Assembly (NCBI GenBank): GCA_020137815.1
Contig: CM035356.1
Location: 8,122,001-8,186,000, forward strand
Length of the DNA: 64,000 nt
Origin: Hormiphora californensis
Taxonomy: Eukaryota; Animalia; Ctenophora
Direction: 5' to 3'
Positions 1,292-31,143 of the stretch are shown piece by piece. The notes under the pieces were generated by a model, which did not search any database, was not told the DNA's origin, and was given only the letters and a program-made list of their open reading frames with translations. The position numbers and the translations under genes were made by a program. The number at the start of each line of letters is the position of its first letter. Position 1 is the stretch's first letter.

Positions 1292-2031
1292 ATCTTGATA
1301 ACTTGGCTAGAAGGGGAAGGTGAGAGGTCAGGTATCTGGATATAACAGATCACATATCTGAGGCGGGGGAGACAGCTCTAAGAAGAGGGCGCGCGGCGCG
1401 AAACACTACCGAAAAAGTGTTTACTCGCTTTAAGTTTAAAGTTCCTACACAGTGCGAATATTCGCGCGTGCGCACCAGTCTCCCCTAACTGTGGCAATGT
1501 CGGTCACAAAATCCTGCAGTTACACGCACAACAGAAGGGACAGCTGCAACCGCTGTCGAAAGTTCACTTTTTCAAACAATTCGGGCAAGCAAAAGTCGGG
1601 AAAAAGAGAGAGACAAAATAAACTATTCATGACCATCAAGGAATCGGCAAAAAGTAGTCTCAGCTGGCAACATATGGCCCTACGAATACACTACATTAAT
1701 ACATAACACGGCCAATTTGCAGTACAAAACCTGAAACGATAAGTGATATCGAATGTTCACACAACATTCAATCGGGATGTTTAATAAGATACACCATACA
1801 AGTTTAGAGGTTTAGTTACTGCTTGGAAAACAGGTCTGAGTAATGCAAAATGAATTATATGTTAAAAAGCTGAAAACAACCAGGACGCAAGGGTTACTAA
1901 ACAAACTTCCAATAATTTAGAGTGGGACAGGGTGGACACTATTTCACCTGCATTAAGTGTATTACTGACAGCATGTGGACCTGCACAAGTAACAATATGA
2001 TGAACCAGGACCCTGTTGCAGCAGAGGATAT

Positions 2032-2313
2032 GGGGGGGGGGGGGACAAATGGTGACATATGGTGACAAATGGTGATGGTGACATGACCAAAATTTTGAGA
2101 TGAGTCACCATTTGTCACCATTCTCTCTGGAGCTTCCTACAGGCATAATATGATGTTATGGGACATAATATGATGTTATGGGACACTGGGGGACACTTCT
2201 ACCAAGTTTCAAGTCGATTGGATGTAATTAAGGGCCACAGGTGGTTAATTGCGCTTTTATGTGTTGTGCGACGGAGGTACACCCTCAACGTGACTTTTGG
2301 GAAGTTTTAGCGG
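2032..2313. mobile_element. Left part of MITE-3 (duplicated copy in unit 1)
   Basis: Poly-G start followed by ACAAATGGTG sub-repeats; essentially identical to 6434-6714. Confidence 0.7.
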
Positions 2314-2545
2314 CTGGCACACTCAGCTTATGTGATAGGAGTTAGCAAGGAATGGTCGTTTCTCACAAGAACAACCCCGGGAATCTCATGCTATCTTCAA
2401 GAAATAGAGGATGCTATTCTTCACAAGCTCCTACCAGCCATAACGGGACAGCCTTTCATCGATGACAACCTTCGTAACATCATGGCCCTGCCTGCACGCC
2501 TGGGTGGACTAGGTATCGACAATCCCGTCATTATGGCGGACCTGG
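2314..2545 (+). mobile_element. 5' fragment of CRE retrotransposon A (duplicated copy)
   Basis: Translates to LAHSAYVIGVSKEWSFLTRTTP..ALPARLGGLGIDNP, homologous to the CRE ORF at 3506-5223. Confidence 0.8.
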
Positions 2546-3392
2546 GGGGGGTTCAACCTAAAAATTTCCATTTCCATTTGCCAAAATCCGGGTATCGATG
2601 GAAATTTTTAGAAATTTTTAGAAGTTTTTAGAAATTTTTAGAAGTTTTTAGTACTAAAAATTTCCAAAAATTTCTAAAAATTTCCAAAAATTTCCATTAA
2701 TTTCTAAAAATTTCCATTGACCAAGAAAAGAAAAATTAACAAAAACTTGAAAATATATAAACACAGTTGTCGAAGAACTGGTTCCTTTTCCTTACCTCTT
2801 GTGACAACTGAGCATCAATAAGTTATTGAATGATAGATAAGACATCGATATCATATATTTTTGGGCAATCCGTACAATTTCTTCAGAAATCATAGCTTCA
2901 TTGGACAACTAAGGACGCGGACGTCTCGAAAACTGATTTAAAAGTAAGTTACCAAATAGCACAAGATACCTTATGTACTTATATAAGGTGCTATTTGGTA
3001 ACTTACTTTTAAATATTCCTTCGGACGGGTCCTTTTACCATGACTAATGCTTAATACCGTAGTAGATCAGGTTTCTTAGCATACAATATAGAAACTTAAA
3101 CTCTTTTTTAAACTCGATAAGGGATATAGCGAGAATAAGTACTAACTTACTGTCGAAAACATGCATAGATTACCTGTCATTACCTTGGAATTGGGTTACC
3201 GACGAACTTATATAAACTTCTAAAAGTTTCTAAAAACTTCTAAAAATTTCTAAAAACTTCTAAAAATTTCTAAAAATTTCCATTTACTAAAAACTTCCAA
3301 AAATTTCCATTGTCCATAAATTTCTAAAAATTTCTAAAAATTTCTAAAAATTTCCAAAAAATTCTAAAAATTTCCAAAAATTTCCAAAAATT

Positions 3393-5223
3393 AATAAGGG
3401 GGGGGTCGGCCGATATTGGCCTTGAATATAAATAGTGGTACACACACTTACAATGTCAATAATAAATTAAACAAACGGGGTCAATAAATTATATAAATAA
3501 AAGATTTAGTCTATTTGGTAGATACTGTCATCCCGACCGCTGCTGCCTTCTGCCCTCAGTCGTCCGCGGTGCCCCCTGATGGAAATGGTGACGGAGCGGA
3601 CCATGGCAAATGACAACCTTAGCCTCAGGTACCGGATACACTGATCGTATGAATATCCTGTTTTAGTCGCCTTCTTCTCAGCCAATTGTTTCAAAGTCTT
3701 ATTAAATTCCCTTCCAAGGCCCCCTGTAGTTGACATGACCAGTGGTGTGAATGTTGACTTTTCCACCTCTAGGACACGGTGGAGGTAGGATGTTTTCTTC
3801 TCTCTCTCGTGTTTTTCATATGTTTTGGCGATGGTCTGGTTTGAGTTGGACGATATCCTTGGATTGAAAATCCTTACATCGAAATAGATATTGTCCATAT
3901 CCGACCAAAAGCCGCGACTACTGATGTCAAGTCTGGCGCCATCGGCTGTTATAGTGCCAGCCGGAAGATTCACCCCTCTAACATTTAGGAGATGGGGTTC
4001 GATCTTAGTGTCGACACATACTTTATTCAGTTCGTGGCCAATGAAATCTCTCACGTTGTTGTGTCGGAAACATACAAAACCTCCGAGTTTACAGGATATG
4101 AGGTGATCGATGGTGTTTTCTTCCCCACATGCACAATGCTGAGGTAAGGCCTGTCCGACGAGAGGCAGGTTATAACGGGCTGACATGGCGTCGTGCCACT
4201 CCTGTCTGTTGAGGGTGAAGTTCAAAGATTGGAGAGGGAGACATGTTAACCAGGATGAGGCCCCCTTTTCCATGAGTAGGTCCAGGTTTCTGATTTCAGC
4301 TGTAGTCATCATGTTTTTGATCTCGTCGATTTTCTTCTGATGAATATCGTTCTTGGTTCGGTGGATGAGGGTTTTCTTCTCTGCTCGTTCCTTTTGGTTG
4401 ATTTTGAATGTTTCCTGTTGAGCTAGGACTGCAACTGAGAGCTCTTCAGTAACAAACTTTGAGAAACTGTAGTCTGAGTCTGATGATATTTGAGGGTTGT
4501 CTACTCCTAGTCCTCCGAATCTTACAGGGAGGGCTGCAACCAATCTCAAGGTTTCATTTACAACTGGCTGACCGGTTATCGCCGGGAGGAGCTTCTGATG
4601 AATTTTCTCCTCAATAGTGCCTAGTTGGTCCGAAATCCCAGGAGTGGTTCTCATGAGATAGCTCCAACGTTTTGATAGTCCGATGTTGTATGCAGTGTAT
4701 GCAAGCTGAGGTTCGTTCAGGGCAATATCACAAATCTGATCAATTTCACTCTCCCATTTCGCAACTTCGTTCCTCACAAACTCTGCCTGACCTTCCTCCG
4801 TACCAATGTATGAACCCAGGTAACGCTGGCCCTGAGAAGTGATGTTTACATCAGGGAACATGGATCGAGCAGCTTCTTCAAATTCTGGTTTCACAATCAG
4901 CCAGGATTTCCCTGGATTTGGGAGATAGCCATAACCAGGTCCATCTTGTTTAACTTTCTCCCACCAGGTTTTTACAGTACTGAGAGTGCCCCCGCCAAGG
5001 CCGTCGTCTGCGTAAAAGATTTGAGTCAATTTAGAGTCCTTATCCTCAACAGACCGTATAAGCGGCATTAGGCAGCAAGCGTACATATGCATAGCAGCAG
5101 TATCTCCCTGGGTTGTCCCTTCAGACGACTTCAAAACTTCATTGTTCTCGCCATCGCATAAAAATAAGTTCGCGGTTAGTCCATATGTATTTTGTAAATA
5201 AATCTTAAATTCAGGGCAAGTGT
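3393..5223 (-). mobile_element. 5'-truncated CRE-clade non-LTR retrotransposon B (RT + zinc knuckle + restriction-like endonuclease)
   Basis: Open frame with EGTTQGD, YADD, CxCG..HLISC, RHNNVRD and RLDI..DV..EREKK..Y. 13-bp TSD ATTTCCAAAAATT at 3380-3392 and 5224-5236. Confidence 0.92.
3506..5223 (-). CDS. CRE B polyprotein, C-terminal about 570 aa (RT-RLE), 5' truncated
   Basis: ORF 3506..5275; its first ~17 residues are read from MITE-2 repeats and do not belong to the element. Confidence 0.85.
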
Positions 5224-5512
5224 ATTTCCAAAAATTTCTAAAAATTTCTAAAAATTTCCAAAATAAAATTTCCATTTGCCAAAAAAGTGGGTATCAATGG
5301 AAATTTTTGAAGTTTTTGAAGTAAACTCAAAACTCAAAAACCAAAAGTGGTGAAAACTTCAACTTCAAACTTCACCGGCCCCCCCCCCCGAGGGAGAGAG
5401 AGAGACGAGTTTAGATGGTACTGGTAAGTTTGGGATAGATCAACATGTGATAACCTAAATGTACCAGACTGTACAATAGTAGGGGAGAATGGGTTATGAA
5501 ATGTTCACACAT

Positions 5513-5700
5513 CCTCCTACTTTTTCTGTCAATCCAAACTGATTTCCCAGTTGACCAAATAACACCAGGTTTTGTACAACTAATCTGATCGTTGATGTAT
5601 CTCAATCCTGGACCCACTTTCAGGTCTTATCTTGGGGAAGAGAAAGTGTCTCACACATGACAATAGCAGGGGAGGGCGGTAGAGACCTCCCCGTCTCCAT
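5513..5700 (-). pseudogene. EXOSC3: Orphan duplicate of EXOSC3 exon 1 with single-base deletions, a damaged donor and no downstream exon
   Basis: Copy of 1101-1291 with frameshifts; the donor GTATGT is reduced to GATGT; downstream sequence is MITE and CRE B. Confidence 0.7.
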
Positions 5701-6714
5701 ATCTGATAACTGGCTAGAAGGGAAGGTGAGAGTCAGGTATCTGGATATAACAGATCACATATCTGAGGCGGGGGAGACAGCTCTAAAAGGGCGCGCGGCG
5801 CGAAACACTACCGAAAAAGTGTTTACTCGCTTTAAGTTTAAAGTTCCTACACAGTGCGAATATTCGCGCGTGCGCACCAGTCTCCCCTAACTGTGGCAAT
5901 GTCGGTCACAAAATCCTGCAGTTACACGCACAACAGAAGGGACAGCTGCAACCGCTGTCGAAAGTTCACTTTTTCAAACAATTCGGGCAAGCAAAAGTCG
6001 GGAAAAAGAGAGAGACAAAATAAACTATTCATGACCATCAAGGAATCGGCAAAAAGTAGTCTCAGCTGGCAACATATGGCCCTACGAATACACTACATTA
6101 ATACATAACACGGCCAATTTGCAGTACAAAACCTGAAACGATAAGTGATATCGAATGTTCACACAACATTCAATCGGGATGTTTAATAAGATACACCATA
6201 CAAGTTTAGAGGTTTAGTTACTGCTTGGAAAACAGGTCTGAGTAATGCAAAATGAATTATATGTTAAAAAGCTGAAAACAACCAGGACGCAAGGGTTACT
6301 AAACAAACTTCCAATAATTTAGAGTGGGACAGGGTGGACACTATTTCACCTGCATTAAGTGTATTACTGACAGCATGTGGACCTGCACAAGTAACAATAT
6401 GATGAACCAGGACCCTGTTGCAGCAGAGGATATGGGGGGGGGGGGACAAATGGTGACATATGGTGACAAATGGTGATGGTGACATGACCAAAATTTTGAG
6501 ATGAGTCACCATTTGTCACCATTCTCTCTGGAGCTTCCTACAGGCATAATATGATGTTATGGGACATAATATGATGTTATGGGACACTGGGGGACACTTC
6601 TACCAAGTTTCAAGTCGATTGGATGTAATTAAGGGCCACAGGTGGTTAATTGCGCTTTTATGTGTTGTGCGACGGAGGTACACCCTCAACGTGACTTTTG
6701 GGAAGTTTTAGCGG

Positions 6715-9026
6715 CTGGCACACTCAGCTTATGTGATAGGAGTTAGCAAGGAATGGTCGTTTCTCACAAGAACAACCCCGGGAATCTCATGCTATCTTCA
6801 AGAAATAGAGGATGCTATTCTTCACAAGCTCCTACCAGCCATAACGGGACAGCCTTTCATCGATGACAACCTTCGTAACATCATGGCCCTGCCTGCACGC
6901 CTGGGTGGACTAGGTATCGACAATCCCGTCATTATGGCGGACCTGGGGGGGGTTCAACCTAAAAATTTCCATTTCCATTTGCCAAAATCCGGGTATCGAT
7001 GGAAATTTTTAGAAATTTTTAGAAGTTTTTAGAAATTTTTAGAAGTTTTTAGTACTAAAAATTTCCAAAAATTTCTAAAAATTTCCAAAAATTTCCATTA
7101 ATTTCTAAAAATTTCTAAAAATTTCTAAAAATTTCTAAAAATTTCTAAAAATTTCTAAAAATTTCCAAAAATTTCCATTGACCAAGAAAAGAAAAATTAA
7201 CAAAAACTTGAAAATATATAAACACAGTTGTCGAAGAACTGGTTCCTTTTCCTTACCTCTTGTGACAACTGAGCATCAATAAGTTATTGAATGATAGATA
7301 AGACATCGATATCATATATTTTTGGGCAATCCGTACAATTTCTTCAGAAATCATAGCTTCATTGGACAACTAAGGACGCGGACGTCTCGAAAACTGATTT
7401 AAAAGTAAGTTACCAAATAGCACAAGATACCTTATGTACTTATATAAGGTGCTATTTGGTAACTTACTTTTAAATATTCCTTCGGACGGGTCCTTTTACC
7501 ATGACTAATGCTTAATACCGTAGTAGATCAGGTTTCTTAGCATACAATATAGAAACTTAAACTCTTTTTTAAACTCGATAAGGGATATAGCGAGAATAAG
7601 TACTAACTTACTGTCGAAAACATGCATAGATTACCTGTCATTACCTTGGAATTGGGTTACCGACGAACTTATATAAACTTCTAAAAGTTTCTAAAAATTT
7701 CTAAAAATTTCTAAAAATTTCTAAAAACTTCTAAAAATTTCTAAAAATTTCCATTTACTAAAAACTTCCAAAAATTTCCATTGTCCATAAATTTCTAAAA
7801 ATTTCTAAAAATTTCTAAAAATTTCCAAAAAATTCTAAAAATTTCCAAAAATTTCCAAAAATTTCTAAAAATTTCTAAAAATTTCTAAAAATTTCCATTT
7901 GCCAAAAAAGTGGGTATCAATGGAAATTTTTAGGGTTGAACCCCCCCCCCCCCCCCCGGACCTGGAGTATGCCAACTCTGTTGCAGTTACATCCAAGCTT
8001 TGTGAAGCTATTGTGAAACAGAAGAAGGAATACAAACAGAAACCAGAGGAACAACGGGAAGTGCTTGCATCAATCAAGAAAATAAAAAACGATCTCTTGA
8101 AGAGTATGGCGGAGAAGATAAAACAGAAGCTAAGTCCCAAAGAACAGAGAAACCTCGACTGGATTAGCGAGAAAGGGGCCTCTTCATTTCTCACGTGCTT
8201 GCCACTTGAGAAACTCCGATTTCATCTTACGAGACAAGAGTTTCACGATGCAATGTCTGTTAGGTATAACATGCCGATAGTTGGGGATCCGAGGCCTGAA
8301 ACATGCTGCTGTGGGGAGAAAAACACTATCGAACATGCATTATCATGTAAGAAAGGTGGATATGTTTCTCTCCGACACAACCGTGTTCGAGACTACATTG
8401 CAGGGGAACTGGACAGAGTATGTTACAACAATCAGATTGAACCTCGCCTTCTTTCCACCAACGGGCGGGCTCTTCCGGAAGGATCACGCTCGACTGGACA
8501 TTTCTACACGGGACTTCTGGACACCAATGGACAAGGCATTCTTCGACGTAAGAGTATTAAACTCCCAAGCCACATCCAATGCTGTCCAGTCGATCCCCCA
8601 GACATTCATCAAGCACGAGAAAGAAAAGAAGACGGGATACAACCATAGAGTGTTAGAAGTGGACGGTGGAGCATTTACTCCCCTGGTTATGGCAACAACT
8701 GGCGGTCTGGGGCGTGAGTTCTCCCGCTTCGTAAAGCATCTTGCAGAAAAGAAATCAGACAAGAGTGGCAACAGATACGAAGAGTGTGTGAGATATATTC
8801 GCCTAAGATTGTCCTTCTCGATGGTGAGGAGTGTCACTCTTTCACTTCGAGGGTTCAGAGGAAGACTGAGAGAGGACACTACTGAAGATTTATATCTGAT
8901 GTAATTGATTGTTGTAGTGCCTTATAGCACAGATTTCCTTTGGCGCCAGAGAGCGCATGCATCATGTACATCCGAGTACTCTCGGAACCAAGGTTTTAAT
9001 ACGGGAGCGCTCTCCCCCCAAAAAAA
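6715..9026 (+). mobile_element. 5'-truncated CRE retrotransposon A, split by MITE-2, with one frameshift near 8490
   Basis: Removing MITE-2 restores GIDNPVIMADLEYANSV. Downstream motifs CCCGEKNTIEHALSC, RHNRVRD and RLDI..EKEKK..Y; stop at 8904. C-run plus A tail; 12-bp TSD AAGTTTTAGCGG at 6703-6714 and 9027-9038. Confidence 0.9.
6947..7956. mobile_element. MITE-2, complete copy, Mutator-like
   Basis: TIR GGGGGGTTCAACC / GGTTGAACCCCCC; TSD up to 9 bp, CGGACCTGG (6938-6946 and 7957-7965); 10-mer arrays. Confidence 0.88.
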
Positions 9027-9539: not shown

Positions 9540-9824
9540 ATCCATTCTCCGGTGAACATGTTAGGAACGTAATTACGCGTAATTAACGAATGTATTTTAT
9601 GAGGTAGATTCTCTGGATAAAAGGCTCAATTATTTGGACCCATTTCTGAGTTGGTGCCTGACATGTACATCAACAGGAAATCCATTCTCCAGTGAACATG
9701 AATAAACATGTTAGGAGCGTAATTAAGCGTATGAATTTTATGAGGTAGATTCTCTGGTGGATGACCATGGATAAAAAACTATAAAAGTTGGGAGAGGACC
9801 CATTTCTGAGTTAGTGCCTCACAT
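9540..9824. repeat. Two diverged direct copies of a ~140-bp unit
   Basis: ATCCATTCTCC..GAGGTAGATTCTCTGG..GGACCCATTTCTGAGTT occurs twice. Confidence 0.7.
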
Positions 9825-9919
9825 CTGTATTTCTTTGTTGTTCTAACTCTCCCTTTACGGGGGCGCCCGAAACACAGTCTAGCCAGGCAAGTATTTCTAG
9901 TGTGGAATCGACATTTAAT

Positions 9920-10685
9920 AAATGTGTTAGAAATGAAGTAGCTACAAAATGTGTGTTAGAAATGAAGTAGCTACAAAATGTGTGTTAGAAATGAAGTAGC
10001 TACAAAATGTGTGTTAGAAATGAAGTAGCTACAAAATGTGTGTTAGAAATGAAGTAGCTACAAAATGTACCTAACTCTGCCAACCTAGTATTTCAACAGC
10101 ACGCTAGACTGGGTATGCGGATAGTCCCACCACCTTACCCCTATAGAGCAGAAACGAAACGAGCTAATCAATTTCACTGCTCATTTGGTCCAAGAGCAGC
10201 TCATTTATGGAACACTCTACCTGCTGCTGTCAATTCTTGTGTGAGCTTGAATCAGTTCAAATCATCATTGGGCAATTACTTGACAGGATTTCACGATCGT
10301 CCTCCAGTCAGAGGGTACCCGCCACTTCCAAATGACCTTTCGCCTCAATGTGCTGTGCTGTGCTGATGAGTGTGAGTGTGAAGGGATAGTTTTTCAACAT
10401 GATTTTATTTAGGTGGACCCATTCAGGGAAGGCCTGTTTCTTTATAAATAAAACTTTAATTGTAAACTTGTAAACTTGTAAACTTGTAATGTGTGTTAGA
10501 AATGAAGTAGCTACAAAATGTGTGTTAGAAATGAAGTAGCTACAAAATGTGTGTTAGAAATGAAGTAGCTACAAAATGTGTGTTAGAAATGAAGTAGCTA
10601 CAAAATGTGTGTTAGAAATGAAGTAGCTACAAAATGTGTGTTAGAAATGAAGTAGCTACAAAATGTGTGTTAGAAATGAAGTAGC
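9920..10685. repeat. 29-bp minisatellite AATGTGTGTTAGAAATGAAGTAGCTACAA, about 12 copies, split by a LINE fragment
   Basis: Perfect copies at 9920-10067 and 10488-10685. Confidence 0.95.
10068..10489 (+). mobile_element. 5'-truncated CR1/L2-type LINE 3' end
   Basis: Encodes an ORF2 C-terminus, SFGPRAAHLWNTLP..NSCVSLNQFKSSL..DRPP, then AATAAA and a (GTAAACTT)n tail at 10462-10489. Confidence 0.8.
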
Positions 10686-10902
10686 GAGAGATTTAAAAAC
10701 TGTTGATCTAAATCTATCTGCCATGACAGGTCTTATGTCTCATGGAGAAGCAGGACCAGCCCGTTGCCTGTGTATGCTTTGTGCCCCCGGCTCATATCAG
10801 AGCAAAGCACAATAAAGAGTTCAACATAAGAGTATCCCCTGGCTTGCGGTAGATGAGCTATATCACTTGTCATCACCTTACAATTTACTAGTATAACGTT
10901 AA

Positions 10903-11352
10903 AGGTTGACAAGATACCTAAAACTTTTCGTATATCGTCTTATTTTGATTTATCAATAATTTTCAGCATTTTTTCAGAATTTTTTGTCGGCTAGAAAAAA
11001 AATCGAAATAGGGGGTCTACCGATATTGTCAGCACTGGTTTTACTGGGCACACTCACTGCGTCTCGCAAATTGAAATTCACGTTTCCGGTTCCTCAAAAG
11101 ATAAAGACTTGATCTTGGTTGCGTTGGATTGGTCTCAATAAGACCTTTCCAACGCTACCAAAACGGTTTCTGTATCTCATCAGGAACCGGAGATATTACG
11201 TTATCAATTTTAAAAAAGGCACACTCATTTGTCAGTAGACCCCCTATTTTGCACATATTTCTAGCCGACAAAAAATTCTGAAAAAATGCTGAAAATTAAT
11301 GATAAATCAAAATAAGACGATATACGAAAAGTTTTAGGTATCTTGTCAACCT
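10903..11352. mobile_element. TTAA-flanked MITE (Kolobok-like, AG ends)
   Basis: About 95-bp TIR beginning AGGTTGACAAGATACC; TTAA at 10899-10902 and 11353-11356. Confidence 0.88.
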
Positions 11353-11584
11353 TTAATCGACACTCCCGGCCTCCTTCACCCATTTTGGGAGCGTCCCATA
11401 GTTTGCCCAAAAACCGAAAGAGTTTTCAAACATAGTCGACGTGCGCCATATGACTGAAATTAGGGATAACTACCAGTGGCACAAAACAAGGAGGGGTGTC
11501 CTCCTTTTGAGCTAGTTGGAGTGTGTGCGGAGGTCATATTGCAGTTGTACAAATTTACGGCCTGTTCTAGAATACTACTGTCCA

Positions 11585-11624
11585 TTCAAACTTTTCAACA
11601 CTACTTTAAACAAATTAATTTGAG
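11585..11624 (+). other. Ctenophore spliced-leader exon copy (retroposed, not an SL RNA gene)
   Basis: TTCAAACTTTTCAACACTACTTTAAACAAATTAATTTGAG matches the Pleurobrachia-type SL as I recall it. It is followed by GATAAA, not by a GT donor and SL intron. Confidence 0.85.
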
Positions 11625-11664
11625 GATAAAGCTGATGTAACAGCCCACGAGGGGCAGAAAGAAA

Positions 11665-12684
11665 ATGGTAAATACTGATAATGAAGAAGAAGCAACTCCT
11701 CGGATTTACCTGGTAGCTCATCCTGGGAAACCGGCTACTGATATTGATAGGAGGAATGTCAACGACTGCCAACATGATACAGTATATTGGGTAAAAGACT
11801 TGTTGTCGGAGTGTTCAGGGTTTGGATACAGTAACCCAGAGGCAGTGAGATATGGAACTGGTCCTCCACCAAGGTCTACCTGGGATGATTTGGAGGTTCC
11901 GTCTGCGAGCAAGCTTAATACGCTGACGAAGAAAAAGCTGTTAGATTTTACTAAGAGGGCGTGTGGTATTTTGCTTGAACAGACATTCCCACTAATTCAA
12001 AAGTTGTGTGACAAGGGTTGTGAAAGTATGATGGTTAGAGAGTGCAAAGAGGAGCTCAGACAGCACGGAAAGGAGCTAATTAAAGCTCAACGAGACCTAG
12101 TAGCGGCACAAGAGGAACTACTCAATATCCAGAGGCAGTTGCTTGAAAAGAGGGAGGTTGAGATTACAGCTGTGCAGTCAACGGCACAGCAAGAACTGAA
12201 GAGCTTCTCCTCCGTTTTGAAGGAAGAATGTGCCTCGGCACTGGCGCCAAAGAAAATTCAATCAGCTATTGTGGCAGCCTCTGAGGACCGTGGATGCAAC
12301 ATCATCATCCATGGCCTGGAAGAGTCAATAAATAGTAGTGTGGAGCTTGAAACTCAAGTAGAGTCTCTTCTTGTTGAGCTAGGAGAGACTCAGAACGTGA
12401 AATCAGTGGAGCGCTTGGGAAGGCAGTCTTTAACTGTCAGGCCAGTGAAAGTCGTACTGAAGAGCAGAGACGCTCAGATGTCGATCCTGTCGAAAAAATC
12501 CCGACTAAAAAGGACCGGCAAGTTCGATAAGGTCTTCATTTCGCCTGACAGGACTTTGGAGGAACGAAATGAGAGAAGACAGCTTGTTGATCGACTGAAG
12601 GAAATGGTTCAAAGGTATCCTGGAAAACACTACTTCATTCGTGGGAAGGAGGTGGTGGAAGCACCAGGGACCACTGAGAATTGA
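11665..12684 (+). CDS. LINE ORF1-like protein (coiled coil + RRM-like + C-terminal domain), 339 aa, intact
   Basis: Heptad region ELIKAQRDLVAAQEELLNIQ; motifs NIIIHGLEES, VERLG..RPVKVVL and KVFISPDRTLEERNERRQLV, typical of CR1/L2-type ORF1p. Confidence 0.82.
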   Translation: MVNTDNEEEATPRIYLVAHPGKPATDIDRRNVNDCQHDTVYWVKDLLSECSGFGYSNPEAVRYGTGPPPRSTWDDLEVPSASKLNTLTKKKLLDFTKRACGILLEQTFPLIQKLCDKGCESMMVRECKEELRQHGKELIKAQRDLVAAQEELLNIQRQLLEKREVEITAVQSTAQQELKSFSSVLKEECASALAPKKIQSAIVAASEDRGCNIIIHGLEESINSSVELETQVESLLVELGETQNVKSVERLGRQSLTVRPVKVVLKSRDAQMSILSKKSRLKRTGKFDKVFISPDRTLEERNERRQLVDRLKEMVQRYPGKHYFIRGKEVVEAPGTTEN

Positions 12685-14088
12685 AATTAAATTTGTTGAG
12701 TTTAGAAGTGATGAGCGAGGAAAGGACAGTTGAGTTGAAAGGTGGTCATTTGTTTGATAGCCTCAATTATTTTTCAAGTTTCAAGTTCAAGTTTCAAAGT
12801 CAGGGATATCAAGACAATTGAAAATGTCCAGCGGTCTTTCGCCAGAAGACTTGAAGGAATGAAAGAGTTAGATTACTGGGCCAGACTCAGAAAACTCTAA
12901 TGATGTCATTCATGCCTGGAAGACTCACCATGAGCTGGTTCCAGACTAAGCTGATAATATCTTCCTAACGACCCTAGGGCACGGGCTTTCCCAACACTAC
13001 CCTGAAACTAAACGGACCAAACAGCTCTTTAACTCATCCAACTGCGTATTTGTGGAACTGTCTATCGAAAACGGTTAACTCTTGTAAATCATCGGGTGAA
13101 TTCAAATCGGATCTAGTGAAGTTCCTTAACACCTTCAGTGAATGTCCCCTCCCCCCGTCCACCACGTTACAAAGATCCTCCTGCATATTGGAGTGATCTA
13201 GGATTCTTCCAACTTACAGTGCGGTAACCTAACTCTGTTAAGAAGAAATGAGGCCACGGAAAGAAAAGGGAGGGGGCACATATCTAGAGAATCACCCTAT
13301 GCTTTGCGGAAAATTCTGTAATTCCGCGGATTGCACATCTAAGGCACAGCTAAATCAAACTGCTGGCCTCCTTGTAGAGGATGGGTACACATTCTCATTC
13401 ATACTGGATCGTGAGCGGTGAGACCACAGTTGCCGTATCTCGTCGACATAAAACCGGTCGTAAGTTACCTCTCCAAATTGCGAGTCAAACATGTTTAACA
13501 GCGTAGGGTAAATCTCCTAGAATTAGACTTGATGGGCGAAAGTATAGTTTGGGCGATAAACAGATCAAGTTCAATTCTTCGGGTTTAAGCCAGGGGACAG
13601 ATTACATACATGCTTTTGTGATAGTAGATTTATTTGCTCGATGCCATAAACTATCAATAGCGGTTAAACCATTAAAATTGATCTTTCCAACTTTAGAAAG
13701 GACTTAGAGCAGTCTAAGAACGCCAATAAATGGGGACAGAGGGTCAAATAACCAGCGTGTTGCACTTTAGGCTGCTTAGCATGAATCTTAAAGGTAGAAA
13801 AGGCATTATAATTTACTGAAAAGGGGATGCAGCTGTGAAAAAAAGCGACCTCAAACGTGGCCAAATCTCGTAACCTTTTTCTGAAACAGCGCCCGCGCCA
13901 CAAGAAAATCAAAAAAATATTTTAAAATTCTAGTTTTTTATGCGCGCGCCCTCTGCGCGTTCATATTTTGTTTGTTGCGGCGCTTTGTTGAATTTTTCGC
14001 GTCCGCGCAAAAATATTTTCTGTGATCCACAGGGTGATAGGATCATCCGAAAATATTGTTTTCCACTCAAACTGTGGCAAATAGGTTA

Positions 14089-14770: not shown

Positions 14771-26276
<11,506 letters not shown>

Positions 26277-26790: not shown

Positions 26791-27744
26791 AAACAGAAAC
26801 AAGAACAAAACAAAACAAAATATAGAAGAAGATAGAATAAAAAAAATAGAGATAATAAATAGAATAAATATAAAAAATAGAATATAACCGAGACAAGAAC
26901 AGCTAGACAAAACAAGAAATAGAGAGGGAGATAGCTGCAATAGAGACCAACAGGTTGAGTTAGGTGTAATACTCATGCATAAAATGATCTTGGCACAAGC
27001 ATTTTATGCACGGATAACATACCGCGTACGGTATAATACTTATCTGGTAGCTATATGGATTAATACATAACTAACTCATCTCCATGGAGGTTGTGCTGTC
27101 AGGCCAATGCTCTGACCACAGTTCTCGCGCGCTCCGCTCTTATTTGAGAGAAACGAGAATGGGTCAGGCCAATGCTCTGACAGAGGTTGTGAGTATATTA
27201 CAGCTGAAGTAGGTTGAGTAACCCCTTACTCAACAAGCTAAAATGGGTTAGTTCCCAGATTTACCCGGAGCCCATGTTCATTATATAATGGGCCATAACT
27301 GGATAGTACGTGGCCAACTGGATATATGAGAACCTTGCTCACGGACATAACTACAGCGTATTAGCTAGGGGTGACTTCGTAACCAAGCTCGTATGTCTGG
27401 CGGCTCCGACCCCGTTTTCCACAGAGCGCTCAGATCGTAAATAACCTCCCGCAGTATATGCTATATTGAGATTGCAAGGATTCATCTGTCAAGATTATAG
27501 AGATCTGGACTGACACAAGATTGCTGCTTGATTCATCATAGCCCACATGTCATGTAAATGAATAGAATGTATGAGTGGGATATGATTACAAATTACATAT
27601 CAAGTTATTCGTTGAATGCTCATCGCATCGTGTTTATTTGGTCAAATAAACAATACTCAACCCAATCTAAACCTTTCAAACATATGGAATAAAGCGACCC
27701 TTCTCGAGTCGACAATTTAGAGTACAATTCTTCATTTTAGGCAT

Positions 27745-29640
27745 ACCTCGACCAAAACGCGGAGTTTTTACGTCAGCCGACCCGAAACCGGATTAAATTT
27801 TGCCACCCGCTGGTCTCAGGGCCTCCAAATATGTCAAAATATGTCTGAATTGTCATTTGGGGTCATTTAGACCTTTTAATTACATGTAATTACCCTTTAA
27901 TTACATGTAATTACATTTTAATTGCATGTAATTACTTCCAATTACATTCCAATTACTTCAGTACCTCGAGAGCTTTCGAACGCACCCTAGAACACCTTTC
28001 TACTCCTTCTAATTGCCGAGTTCTGTATACCCCTTATTTTGACTGTTTTTCGCGTCCTACCCCTTATGGGTTTGGGCACACCCATCGCCACACCCCCTAT
28101 ACGTCGCGGGACCTCGAGACCTTTCCAACGAGCCATAGAACACCTCTCTACTACTTCAGGGGGCTTCAAAACTTTCACTCTAAAAATATCTATGGTTTTA
28201 TGGTTTATGGTTATGGTTTATCTCGACCAAAACGCGGAGTTTTTACGTCAGCCGACCCGAAACCGGATTAAATTTGGCCACCCGCTGGTCTCAGGGCCTC
28301 CAAATATGTCAAAATATGTTTAAATTATCATTCTGGGTCATTTAGACCTTTTAATTACATGTAATTACCCTTTAATTACATGTAATTACATTTTAATTAC
28401 ATGTAATTACTTTCAATTACATTCCAATTACTTCAGCACCTCGAGAGCTTTCGAACGCACCCTAGAACACCTTTCTACTCCTTCTAATTGCCGAGATCTG
28501 CATACCCCTTATTTTGACTGTTTTTCGCGTCCTACCCCTTATAGGTTTGGGTATGGCCATCGCCACACCCCCTATACGTCGCGGGACCTCGAGACCTTTC
28601 CAACGAGCCATAGAACACCTCTCTACTACTTCAGGGGGCTTCAAAACTTTCACTCTAAAAATATCTATGGTTTTATGGTTTTATGGTTTATGGTTACCTC
28701 GACCAAAACGCGGAGTTTTTACGTCAGCCGACCCGAAACCGGATTAAATTTTGCCACCCGCTGGTCTCAGGGCCTCCAAATATGTCAAAATATGTCTGAA
28801 TTGTCATTTGGGGTCATTTAGACCTTTTAATTACATGTAATTACCCTTTAATTACATGTAATTACATTTTAATTACATGTAATTACTTCCAATTACATTC
28901 CAATTACTTCAGCACCTCGAGAGCTTTCGAACGCACCATAGAACACCTTTCTACTCCTTCTAATTGCCGAGTTCTGTATACCCCTTATTTTCACTGTTTT
29001 TCGCGTCCTACCCCTTATAGGTTTGGGTATGGCCATCGCCACACCCCCTATACGTCGCGGGACCTCGAGACCTTTCCAACGAGCCATAGAACACCTCTCT
29101 ACTACTTCAGGGGGCTTCAAAACTTTCACTCTAAAAATATCTATGGTTTATGGTTTTATGGTTACCTCGACCAAAACGCGGAGTTTTTACGTCAGCCGAC
29201 CCGAAACCGGATTAAATTTGGCCACCCGCTGGTCTCAGGGCCTCCAAATATGTCAAAATATGTCTGAATTGTCATTTGGGGTCATTTAGACCTTTTAATT
29301 ACATGTAATTACCCTTTAATTACATGTAATTACATTTTAATTACATGTAATTACTTCCAATTACATTCCAATTACTTGAGCACCTCGAGAGCTTTCGAAC
29401 GCACCCTAGAACACCTTTCTACTCCTTCTAATTGCCTAGTTCTGTATACCCCTTATTTTCACTGTTTTTCGCGTCCTACCCCTTATGGGTTTGGGTATGG
29501 CCATCGCCACACCCCCTATACGTCGCGGGACCTCGAGACCTTTCCAACGAGCCATAGAACACCTCTCTACTACTTCAGGGGGCTTCAAAACTTTCACTCT
29601 AAAAATATCTATGGTTTATGGTTTATGGTTTATGGTTTAT
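27745..29640. repeat. About 475-bp tandem repeat, 4 copies
   Basis: Units start CTCGACCAAAACGCGGAG near 27746, 28222, 28697 and 29166; internal TAATTACATG arrays. Confidence 0.95.
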
Positions 29641-30307
29641 GGTTTTTTTTTCATCTGGTATTAAGGGCCTGTCGGCTCGGCCCCGTTGTTTTAGTTTTAG
29701 GGGGGATGTTTTAGGGGGGATGGGTTGAGTTTGGGTTATATTCGGGTCGGGGGGCCTTGCCAGGCCCCGAATGGTTTTTTTTCATCTGGTATTAAGGGCC
29801 TGTCGGCTCGGCCCCGTTGTTTTAGTTTTAGGGGGGATGTTTTAGGGGGGATGGGTTGAGTTTGGGTTATATTCGGGTCGGGGGGCCTTGCCAGGCCCCG
29901 AATGGTTTTTTTTTCATCTGGTATTAAGGGCCTGTCGGCTCGGCCCCGTTGTTTTAGTTTTAGGGGGGATGTTTTAGGGGGGATGGGTTGAGTTTGGGTT
30001 ATATTCGGGTCGGGGGGCCTTGCCAGGCCCCGAATGGTTTATGGTTTTTTTTTTCATCTGGTATTAAGGGCCTGTCGGCTCGGCCCCGTTGTTTTAGTTT
30101 TAGGGGGGATGTTTTAGTGGGGATGGGTTGAGTTTGGGTTATATTCGGGTCGGGGGGCCTTGCCAGGCCCCGAATGGTTTTTTTTTCATCTGGTATTAAG
30201 GGCCTGTCGGCTCGGCCCCGTTGTTTTAGTTTTAGGGGGGATGTTTTAGGGGGGATGGGTTGAGTTTGGGTTATATTCGGGTCGGGGGGCCTTGCCAGGC
30301 CCCGAAT
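29640..30307. repeat. About 130-bp G-rich tandem repeat, 5 copies
   Basis: Unit TTTCATCTGGTATTAAGGGCCTGTCGG..GCCAGGCCCCGAATG. Confidence 0.95.
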
Positions 30308-31143
30308 GAAACATGGATAACATTCGCCTGAATCTGAGGACCCAAATTCTGTCATAAGCATGCTATAATTGTAGTACTTGTCATATTGACATTGTGTCAG
30401 CTAGTATGAGTTTATCAAGAATGATCAAGGACGATCCCATTAACGAGCTCATCACGGGGCCATTTCATGAGTCATGGTATCCCTGTCAGACCAATGCTCT
30501 AACAGTGGTATCCGGTATGGAGTCACGATATGGAATGATTTTACATGATAATGAAGTGCTAATTTCACCCACAATATAATATCGGGGGGGGGGGGGGGGG
30601 GACAGAAGATCACATTTTCCAGTTGTCGAGACCCATATTAATCATTTGACATGTTCCCAGTCTGTATCCGGCTTTCACACCGGCCCTATGTGAAATTAGT
30701 TCGTGATATGAATCGTGAACCCGAATTAGGCGTTTCATCGTACAAAAGACAGCCTTCCATCAATCGTTATCTCTATACCTACTTAAGATGTTTGAAGGGC
30801 TTCTCTGTTTCAATCACTTTGAAACATTTTGAATTGATTTTAACATCAAGTATCACTACATCACCTCCTTCTCCCTTTGATGCTCTCCCATGACCAACTT
30901 TATAATAACTGAGAGCTAGATCTCACCGGACAATAGAACATGCTAGATTTCTTTCTCCCGTACTAGAGGATGGGCGTACCCACTATATATGTGGGAGAGA
31001 TAGAGAGGGTCTAAGGGCAATCCATTCTCATTCTTCTTGTCGGGGATTCTCTCCTATGGTTTCCGGGTCGTTCTGTATATAGCAAGTTAACAAAGGTCAG
31101 AGCTTGTCACGTGATTGAAACGGAGAGAGAGGGAGAGAGAGGG

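What the first reader, a model, noticed from the sequence alone, without database searches (positions are those of the whole stretch)
11585..12798. Spliced-leader-headed, ORF1-only retroelement inserted as a discrete unit
Seen: 40 nt of SL-like sequence with no GT donor, a 40-nt UTR, an intact 339-aa LINE ORF1, a ~90-nt 3' UTR and a TTTCAAG/TTCAAG repeat tail (12772-12794), with no ORF2. TTCAAA flanks both ends (11585-11590 and 12793-12798). Removing the insert rejoins an older LINE ORF2 in frame (..LEYYCP-F-KVRDIKTIENVQR), so the whole unit arrived as one retrotransposition. Known: ctenophores trans-splice an SL; CR1/L2 elements end in simple-repeat tails. Inference: a non-autonomous LINE whose RNA gets its 5' end by SL trans-splicing (or carries a captured SL), supplies only ORF1p, and borrows ORF2p in trans. 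This would be a trans-splicing-dependent or bipartite retroelement system.
Basis: partly seen in the sequence, partly recalled or inferred. Interest (0 to 1): 0.88.

Follow-up and report, generated by a model that had tools for sequence, protein, structure and literature searches.

The report
Spliced-leader-headed half-LINE in comb jelly
A comb-jelly genome carries many copies of a 1.2-kb jumping gene that begins with the host's spliced-leader tag and encodes only one protein, predicted to fold like the LINE-1 RNA-binding protein; this copy sits at a site that is empty on other chromosomes, and the family likely borrows another element's copying enzyme and likely gets its front end from the cell's leader-splicing machinery.

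Summary
Observation confirmed and extended. 11585-11624 equals the last 40 of the 44 bases of the published Hormiphora spliced leader (SL). The exact empty site, with one TTCAAA instead of two, exists in DNA runs of two studies, so this is a polymorphic insertion. The 339-aa ORF is predicted to fold like LINE-1 ORF1p and is under purifying selection (dN/dS 0.26). It is a family: SL-to-UTR junctions stand at roughly 13 and 17 times single-allele depth in two forms that differ by 6 bases ending in AG, and a relative with 0.55 synonymous divergence keeps the SL, 5' UTR and 3' end almost unchanged. No ORF2 follows ORF1 in 4 of 4 related loci, on short contigs. It works like HAL1 but is not one. 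Not shown: the partner enzyme, expression, and whether the leader is re-spliced each cycle or was captured once. Nine literature searches listed no such element; this scan noted SL-headed or ORF1-only elements before in sea squirt, dinoflagellate and Euglena DNA (unchecked notes). Verdict: new variant of a known kind.

The parts
11585..12798 (+). Whole insertion with both copies of the 6-nt repeat (1208 new bases plus the 6-nt target)
   Evidence: Empty-site joint 11584 to 12793 in runs X1 and X4
11585..11590 (+). 5' copy of TTCAAA: target duplication and at the same time bases 5-10 of the published leader (5' microhomology)
11585..11624 (+). Spliced-leader exon copy, last 40 of 44 published bases, ending at AG with no donor behind it
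   Evidence: PMC8527503 section 37; 40 of 40 identical in L002; GT follows the leader in an SL-gene contig of X6
11625..11664 (+). 5' UTR, invariant between subfamilies; many family copies carry 6 extra bases ending in AG between the leader and this UTR
   Evidence: 40 of 40 identical in L002; two junction forms
11665..12684 (+). Intact 339-aa ORF1: variable N-terminus, coiled coil about 122-192, RRM about 208-295, C-terminal domain; predicted L1-type (type II) ORF1p
   Evidence: Model; Foldseek ranks 1-9 all human L1 ORF1p; Z 10.5, rmsd 2.5 over 88 residues to 2w7a; dN/dS 0.26
12685..12771 (+). 3' UTR; its last part plus the tail (12721 onward) is 67 of 68 identical in L002, likely the signal read by the borrowed reverse transcriptase
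   Evidence: fold not better than shuffles (z -1.3 to -1.7)
12772..12792 (+). Simple-repeat tail of TTTCAAG/TTCAAG units; no poly(A)
   Evidence: same tail in L002
12793..12798 (+). 3' copy of TTCAAA (target site)
11516..11584 (+). Left piece of the decayed host element, read as a LINE ORF2 C-terminus from recalled motifs
   Evidence: Frame; not named
12799..13196 (+). Right piece of the decayed host element
   Evidence: Continues the frame; 40% identity over 50 aa, E 7e-6, to a second remnant at 10058-10363

Best explanation
This is a polymorphic copy of a multi-copy, 1.2-kb retroelement family of a pleurobrachiid ctenophore that starts with the host spliced leader and encodes only a protein predicted to be a LINE ORF1p; it likely moves by borrowing the ORF2 protein of another LINE, and its RNA likely receives the leader by trans-splicing. 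Steps: (1) inferred: a copy is transcribed, from a neighbouring promoter or from the invariant 5' UTR; (2) inferred: the host spliceosome adds a fresh capped leader at an AG at the head, either the leader copy's own last AG, which rebuilds the same head, or the AG 6 bases further on, which gives the shorter form found in the window; (3) inferred from purifying selection: ORF1p is made and packages the element's own RNA; (4) inferred: a partner ORF2p, likely of the CR1/L2 kind, binds the conserved 3' end, nicks DNA and primes where the tail pairs with TTCAAA; (5) shown in outcome, inferred in mechanism: the cDNA end, complementary to the leader's own TTCAAA, anneals to the target overhang, which leaves a 6-nt duplication and drops the first few leader bases.
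For: Empty allele with one TTCAAA in 2 of 4 runs laid, from two studies. The head is exactly the SL exon, ending where an SL gene has its GT donor, which a trans-splicing event explains and a random template switch would not. Two junction forms in genomic contigs of X1, depth 1331.8 (short) and 1768.4 (long) against 104.8 for one allele, about 13 and 17 allele-equivalents (an estimate). The long form also stands in X8 (depth 1421.1) and in X6, where it runs into this window's own ORF start (record 20; record 16, no other letters, 6 gaps). L002 has the same anatomy with the long form. Single-position depths in the 5' half of the ORF in X1 (1,593 to 3,625, table 3) are of the same size as the two junction forms together (3,100), which leaves little room for a large class without the leader. 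dN/dS 0.26 overall and 0.12 for residues 124-339 against L002, 0.17 against L001; 7 of the 18 shown within-family differences are non-synonymous against 78% expected. Termini 80 of 80 and 67 of 68 identical while 39% of synonymous sites differ. No stop-free run above 47 aa after ORF1 in 4 of 4 related loci (105-574 bases available). 7 of 15 listed members of the closest protein cluster are full length at 89-96% identity. The L2-clade element ZfL2-1 makes about 5-bp duplications and joins its 5' end by annealing (PMC4245944 passages; the clade label is recalled). About 30% of TE long reads in Hydra carry an SL (PMC12220107 passage).
Against: The 6 extra bases are a near-duplicate of the leader's last 6 bases, so one slippage deletion in DNA explains the two forms without repeated splicing. 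The invariant leader proves no renewal, since the UTR next to it is equally invariant. The high-depth junction contigs hold only 16-26 leader bases, under the tool's 31-base rule for bridging; only X8 record 27 (depth 16.4) meets the rule, and X6 record 20 has 30. Depth is not a copy number by the tool's own warning. The leader is shown in only 1 of 4 related loci: L001 is cut 25 bases before its ATG, and L003 and L004 (44% and 39% identity) show no leader in their upstream DNA. L001 has a different 3' UTR and tail. L002's ORF has a one-base frameshift. All related contigs are short, so ORF2-bearing members elsewhere are not excluded. No partner element was identified.
Confidence: 0.58

Rival explanations
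1. Same ORF1-only family, but the leader was gained by one ancient trans-splicing event and is now a fixed, captured head. The element is transcribed from an internal promoter, and the two forms differ by one DNA slippage.
For: The 6 bases are a near-tandem duplicate (alignment). The 40-nt UTR is invariant, as an internal promoter would be. The long form is shared by two subfamilies, so it is old. A promoter role for a retroposed leader has been proposed in dinoflagellates (PMC6050394 passage).
Against: The leader copy stays identical to a functional leader of another genus across 0.55 synonymous divergence. The lost piece ends exactly at an AG. A third head in X8 also has a pyrimidine run and AG right behind the leader (3 contigs, short loose ends; weak).
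Confidence: 0.27
2. The copies are dead-end retrocopies of a trans-spliced ORF1 mRNA made by one or a few master loci: a domesticated ORF1 gene (L1TD1-like) or an ORF1-only transcript of an autonomous LINE.
For: Purifying selection on ORF1 fits a host gene or a master. Alternative acceptors 6 bases apart fit an outron in a master locus. The leader is followed by many different sequences in genomic contigs (27 in X1, 22 in X8, agreement 0.43-0.45), so leader-headed retrocopying may be common here.
Against: The tail is a simple repeat, not poly(A), and is shared with a diverged subfamily. Several ORF1 subfamilies at 53-96% identity exist. Depth holds through the 3' UTR into the tail. No longer protein was found (weak).
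Confidence: 0.1
3. The family targets SL RNA genes: the tail unit matches the leader's 5' end, so copies insert there and use the SL gene's promoter. The window copy is an off-target insertion.
For: The tail repeat matches the first 7 bases of the head held in L002; chance 0.0006 at the 5' end, 0.023 anywhere in the head (post hoc). SL exons are known targets of non-LTR elements (PMC4640811 passage).
Against: Neither of the 2 copies with a known 5' flank lies in an SL gene (window: old LINE-like remnant; L002: AT-rich DNA). No tail-to-leader joint among the 15 joints shown (14 hidden).
Confidence: 0.05

Closest known systems
HAL1 (half-L1) of mammals (PMC5753468 passage; Bao and Jurka 2010 not read)
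   Same: Non-autonomous LINE derivative encoding only ORF1p; the protein is of the same structural type.
   Different: Ctenophore; SL exon as head; simple-repeat tail and 6-nt duplication instead of L1's about 15-bp duplication and poly(A) (recalled); partner unknown.
CR1 and L2 clade LINEs with type II ORF1 (PMC4120745 passages); ZfL2-1 (PMC4245944 passages)
   Same: Coiled coil + RRM + CTD ORF1 matching 2yko; short duplication; 5' joining by annealing; simple-repeat tail (recalled).
   Different: No ORF2; leader head. The clade cannot be fixed without a reverse transcriptase, and type II ORF1 also occurs in L1 and R1 clades.
DinoSL-tagged retrogenes of dinoflagellates (PMC6050394 passages)
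   Same: Genomic copy of a trans-spliced RNA with the leader fixed at its 5' end.
   Different: Here the copied RNA is a selfish, protein-coding retroelement family with conserved termini and its own tail, not a host mRNA.
HDV-like ribozyme heads of L1Tc/ingi and other elements (PMC4035085 abstract)
   Same: A functional parallel if the inferred step holds: a way to release the element RNA with a defined 5' end from a host co-transcript.
   Different: Self-cleaving RNA there; the host trans-spliceosome here (inferred, untested).
SL-exon-targeting elements NeSL, SLACS, CRE (PMC4640811 passages) and snRNA-headed SINEU (PMC4494074, search listing and one passage)
   Same: A link between retroelements and small-RNA genes.
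   Different: Those insert into SL genes and encode their own enzyme, or are SINEs; this one carries the SL exon, encodes ORF1 only, and both sites seen lie outside SL genes.

Membership tests
Non-LTR retro-insertion (target-primed) | Empty allele with a single copy of the flanking repeat | tested here: met
   Joint 11584 to 12793 with 6 shared letters in X1 and X4
Non-LTR retro-insertion (target-primed) | RNA-derived 5' end and a 3' tail, no terminal repeats | tested here: met
   SL exon without donor; tail; self-BLAST of the insert gave only the self-match
HAL1 | Encodes ORF1p only, no ORF2 | tested here: met
   Window and 4 of 4 related loci have no stop-free run above 47 aa after ORF1; contigs are short
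HAL1 | ORF1p of L1 type (coiled coil, RRM, CTD) | tested here: met
   Predicted model, mean pLDDT 67; Foldseek ranks 1-9, best E 1.8e-5; Z 10.5 against 8.9 for the best unrelated RRM. Pfam and PDB sequence searches found nothing.
HAL1 | Derived from and moved by mammalian L1 (poly(A) tail, recalled; about 15-bp duplication) | tested here: not met
   Ctenophore relatives; simple-repeat tail; 6-nt duplication
Autonomous CR1/L2 LINE | ORF2 with endonuclease and reverse transcriptase | tested here: not met
   None inside the insertion limits set by the empty allele
Autonomous CR1/L2 LINE as partner | Partner LINE sharing the 3' end and tail | not testable with these tools
   No genome is held; the tail motif occurs once in the window
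SL-trans-spliced transcript | Leader exon joined at an AG acceptor, ending at the donor position | tested here: met
   two forms 6 bases apart, both at AG
SL-trans-spliced transcript | Unspliced precursor or outron seen, and splicing shown in RNA | tested here: inconclusive
   No outron-type loose end among rows shown, 32 hidden; only contigs were available
SL-gene-targeting elements (NeSL, SLACS, CRE) | Insertion inside SL RNA genes | tested here: inconclusive
   0 of 2 copies with a known 5' flank; no genome-wide test
SL-gene-targeting elements (NeSL, SLACS, CRE) | Own reverse transcriptase with restriction-like endonuclease | tested here: not met
   Only ORF1 is encoded
Processed retrocopy of a host gene | One parent gene, poly(A) tail, copies decaying neutrally | tested here: inconclusive
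   No poly(A); several subfamilies with intact ORFs; a parent locus could not be searched for genome-wide

The most novel reading that the evidence does not exclude
A promoter-less retroelement that rebuilds its own capped 5' end in every cycle: read-through RNA is trans-spliced at the AG of the leader copy it carries, so each new insertion is again a substrate for the host trans-spliceosome, which takes the place of a promoter or ribozyme. Its tail mimics the leader's 5' motif so that both ends anneal to the same target hexamer and favour full-length insertion. Many of the hundreds of genomic 'leader' copies in ctenophores would then be heads of retroposed RNAs, not SL genes.
Probability: 0.3. 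Interest if true: 0.83.

Novelty: new variant of a known kind. Interest (0 to 1): 0.63.

Why it matters
It gives a living, polymorphic ORF1-only LINE derivative in a ctenophore, with ORF1 under clear selection, so the question of why half-elements keep ORF1p can be tested outside mammals. It ties host SL trans-splicing to the DNA copies of a retroelement, not only to its transcripts, as reported for Hydra. If re-splicing at the captured leader is real, it is a further way for non-LTR elements to define their 5' end, beside internal promoters and ribozymes. It also warns that genomic counts of leader sequences (718 in H. californensis) may include retroposed heads.

Tried and rejected
No whole genome is held, so no direct copy census. 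Pfam and a PDB sequence search did not recognise ORF1; only the predicted fold did. A search for longer, fused forms found none among 5477 candidates (weak). The one long hit tested, P0194 (768 aa), carries a glycosyltransferase domain, not ORF2; none of the 12 representatives scanned had an endonuclease or RT family. No relatives in viral contigs (51 stretches) or prokaryote genomes (100 stretches). Rfam gave one chance-level hit (E 0.56). RNA folds of the 3' and 5' ends were not better than shuffles (z -1.65, -1.33, -0.60, +0.73), so no stem-loop is claimed. The L002 subfamily's ORF start has no cover in the four runs. Loose ends before 12754 in X1 (3 contigs) first looked like a partner LINE sharing the tail; by eye they resemble a diverged 3' UTR of the same family, so I did not count them. 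The two LINE-like remnants in the window do not end in the element's tail. The host remnant could not be named. Contig lengths near 1.2 kb for the homologues fit an element-sized repeat, but most contigs of that collection are short, so this was not counted. An assembly artefact was considered and judged unlikely: exact empty allele, clean repeat, intact family-type insert. Literature: searches (0 papers) listed no SL-headed ORF1-only element or ctenophore case, judged from titles and abstract starts; Repbase, Derelle 2010 and the supplements of PMC8527503 could not be seen and may bear on novelty. PMC13343379 had none of six terms sought.

Full report
Setting. The window is eukaryotic and repeat-rich. 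No whole genome is held. The closest proteins include Pleurobrachia bachei gene models and the nearest Atlas clusters are mostly Ctenophora where a phylum is recorded. With the leader match below, the source is likely a pleurobrachiid ctenophore; I did not determine the species.

The observation. All coordinates hold. The 40 bases at 11585-11624 are the last 40 of the 44-base leader printed for Hormiphora californensis (PMC8527503, passages), where 718 genomic copies and 56% of long reads are reported to carry it. In the window the leader is followed by GA; in one contig of run X6 the same leader is followed by a GT donor, the context of a true SL gene. The head is therefore the exon alone, cut at the splice junction.

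It is a real, polymorphic insertion. Laying public contigs on 10700-13700 gave a joint from 11584 to 12793 that skips 1208 bases with 6 letters fitting either side, in X1 (244 + 321 bases, no differences, depth 104.8) and X4 (depth 209.6); these are two studies, and X1 may be the window's own source. X6 and X8 do not list it. Nearby unique contigs in X1 have depth 187-194, so the empty site looks heterozygous there (inference). The filled allele's flank junctions were not among the rows shown. The flanks read in one frame, but a paralogous contig has 15 more bases at this point (table 5c), which the empty allele also lacks, so the insertion caused no deletion. The host remnant is called LINE ORF2 from recalled motifs only (searches did not name it).

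The protein. Pfam and PDB sequence searches were blank. An AlphaFold model from 19 sequences (mean pLDDT 67) shows a long helix at 122-192 and an RRM-like and C-terminal domain. Foldseek's ranks 1-9 are all human LINE-1 ORF1p (best E 1.8e-5), and the second aligner puts five L1 ORF1p entries first (Z 10.5, rmsd 2.5, 88 residues; best unrelated RRM Z 8.9). This is the type II ORF1 found in L1, CR1, L2 and R1 clades (PMC4120745, passages). Residues 1-120 are poorly modelled and untested. A profile search finds 205 representatives at E 1e-30 or better.

It is a family. 18 protein clusters of 33-96% identity were found; 7 of the 15 listed members of the closest cluster are full length at 89-96%. 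Four DNA loci were retrieved. L002 has the same plan: leader, 6 extra bases ending in AG, identical 40-base UTR, ORF1 with one frameshift, the same 3' end and tail. L001 has ORF1, 188 bases and a different simple-repeat tail, and is cut before any leader could be seen. L003 and L004 (44% and 39%) show no leader upstream. After ORF1 none of the 4 has a stop-free run above 47 aa in 105-574 bases. Against L002, dN/dS is 0.26 (0.56 for residues 1-123, 0.12 for 124-339) at dS 0.55; the leader and 5' UTR are 80 of 80 identical and the 3' end 67 of 68 (neutral expectation about 1e-17 and 1e-13). A selected ORF between frozen ends is what a retroelement with cis signals at both ends would show; recombination between subfamilies could also homogenise the ends.

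Leader-headed copies are many. On L002:56-175, X1 has a contig with the leader joined directly to the UTR (depth 1331.8) and one with the 6 extra bases (1768.4), about 13 and 17 times the single-allele depth. X8 has the long form at 1421.1. X6 has the long form running into the window's own ORF start with no other letters (record 20; record 16). These are estimates: the tool warns that depth is no copy number, the high-depth contigs hold only 16-26 leader bases, and only X8 record 27 meets its 31-base rule. Depths at single positions in the 5' half of the ORF in X1 are 1,593-3,625, similar to the two forms together. The 3' half is several times deeper, from truncated copies or other subfamilies, and the depth holds into the tail. 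No outron-type end was among the rows shown (32 hidden).

Mechanism. Shown: insertion as a unit, leader exon at the head, ORF1 only, two head forms, selection on ORF1. Inferred: a borrowed ORF2p. The short duplication and non-poly(A) tail point to a CR1/L2-like enzyme; ZfL2-1 makes about 5-bp duplications and joins 5' ends by annealing (PMC4245944, abstract and passages). Here TTCAAA is at once target, near-match to the tail unit and part of the leader, so tail pairing could prime reverse transcription and leader pairing could close the 5' end, dropping the first leader bases. The tail unit matches the first 7 bases of the L002 head with chance 0.0006 at that place or 0.023 anywhere in the head (post hoc). 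At least one trans-splicing event made the head. Whether it recurs is open: because the leader ends in AG, RNA running through a copy could be spliced there again and regain the same capped head, or 6 bases further on and give the short form. Against this, the 6 bases are a near-duplicate of the leader's end, so slippage would give the same result. I put recurrent splicing at about 2 to 1 over a captured head.

Comparison. It works like HAL1, the ORF1-only derivative of L1 (PMC5753468, passage), but fails membership on lineage, tail and duplication length. It resembles leader-tagged retrogenes of dinoflagellates (PMC6050394, passages) but is a selfish family. Trans-splicing of TE transcripts is reported in Hydra (about 30% of TE reads; PMC12220107, passage), so a leader on element RNA is not surprising; a leader fixed at the head of a coding, multi-copy element is the new part. 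SL-targeting elements (PMC4640811, passages) differ in enzyme and site. Ribozyme-headed elements (PMC4035085, abstract and outline) are the functional parallel for the inferred step. PMC7986045 (passages) gave background only; PMC4494074 gave a listing and one reference passage; L1TD1 (PMC4161310) was seen in a listing only.

Novelty. Nine searches listed no such element, judged from listings; Repbase, Derelle 2010 and the Hormiphora supplements were not visible. The scan's earlier notes hold nothing by sequence or in this genome but several similar cases in other lineages by words; these are unchecked and not counted as support. Verdict: new variant of a known kind, interest 0.63; the promoter-less, self-renewing reading has probability about 0.3 and would merit about 0.83.

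Noticed in passing
window 2300-8900: Several pieces of another retroelement-like ORF (595 aa at 3509-5293 minus; a 48-61% identical copy at 7935-8877 plus; two short copies at 2311-2541 and 6712-6942) lie among arrays of a 10-base repeat. It looks like a reverse transcriptase with restriction-like endonuclease of the CRE kind from recalled motifs; Pfam and PDB gave no support. The arrays may be its target.
   Followed up: partly
window 10899-11356: A 458-base inverted-repeat element (74% self-complementary) with very high depth in X1, X4 and X8 and joints that skip it in X1 and X4: likely a MITE, just upstream of the finding.
   Followed up: partly
window 9560-10490: A second LINE-like 3' remnant (open frame 10058-10363), split by a 29-base array and followed by an 8-base repeat of 3.8 copies at 10460-10489, a possible tail of another family.
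   Followed up: partly
L002 56-95 and window 11585-11624, in runs X1, X4, X8: The leader is followed by many different sequences in genomic contigs (22-29 contigs per run, agreement 0.42-0.45, consensus not starting with GT), which suggests that many genomic leader copies are heads of retroposed RNAs and not SL genes.
   Followed up: no
L002 position 99, run X8: Three contigs continue from the leader with a pyrimidine run, an AG and a sequence resembling this family's UTR: possibly a third head form in another subfamily (short loose ends).
   Followed up: no
L001 1048-1236: A 53%-identical ORF1-only relative has a different 3' UTR and a three-base repeat tail, so sister families may use different partner LINEs.
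   Followed up: partly
window 27744-30309: Tandem arrays of 468 bases (4 copies) and 132 bases (5 copies), 96% alike.
   Followed up: no
window 20135-21165: Two similar open frames (188 and 174 aa) that look like a repeated extracellular domain; not examined.
   Followed up: no
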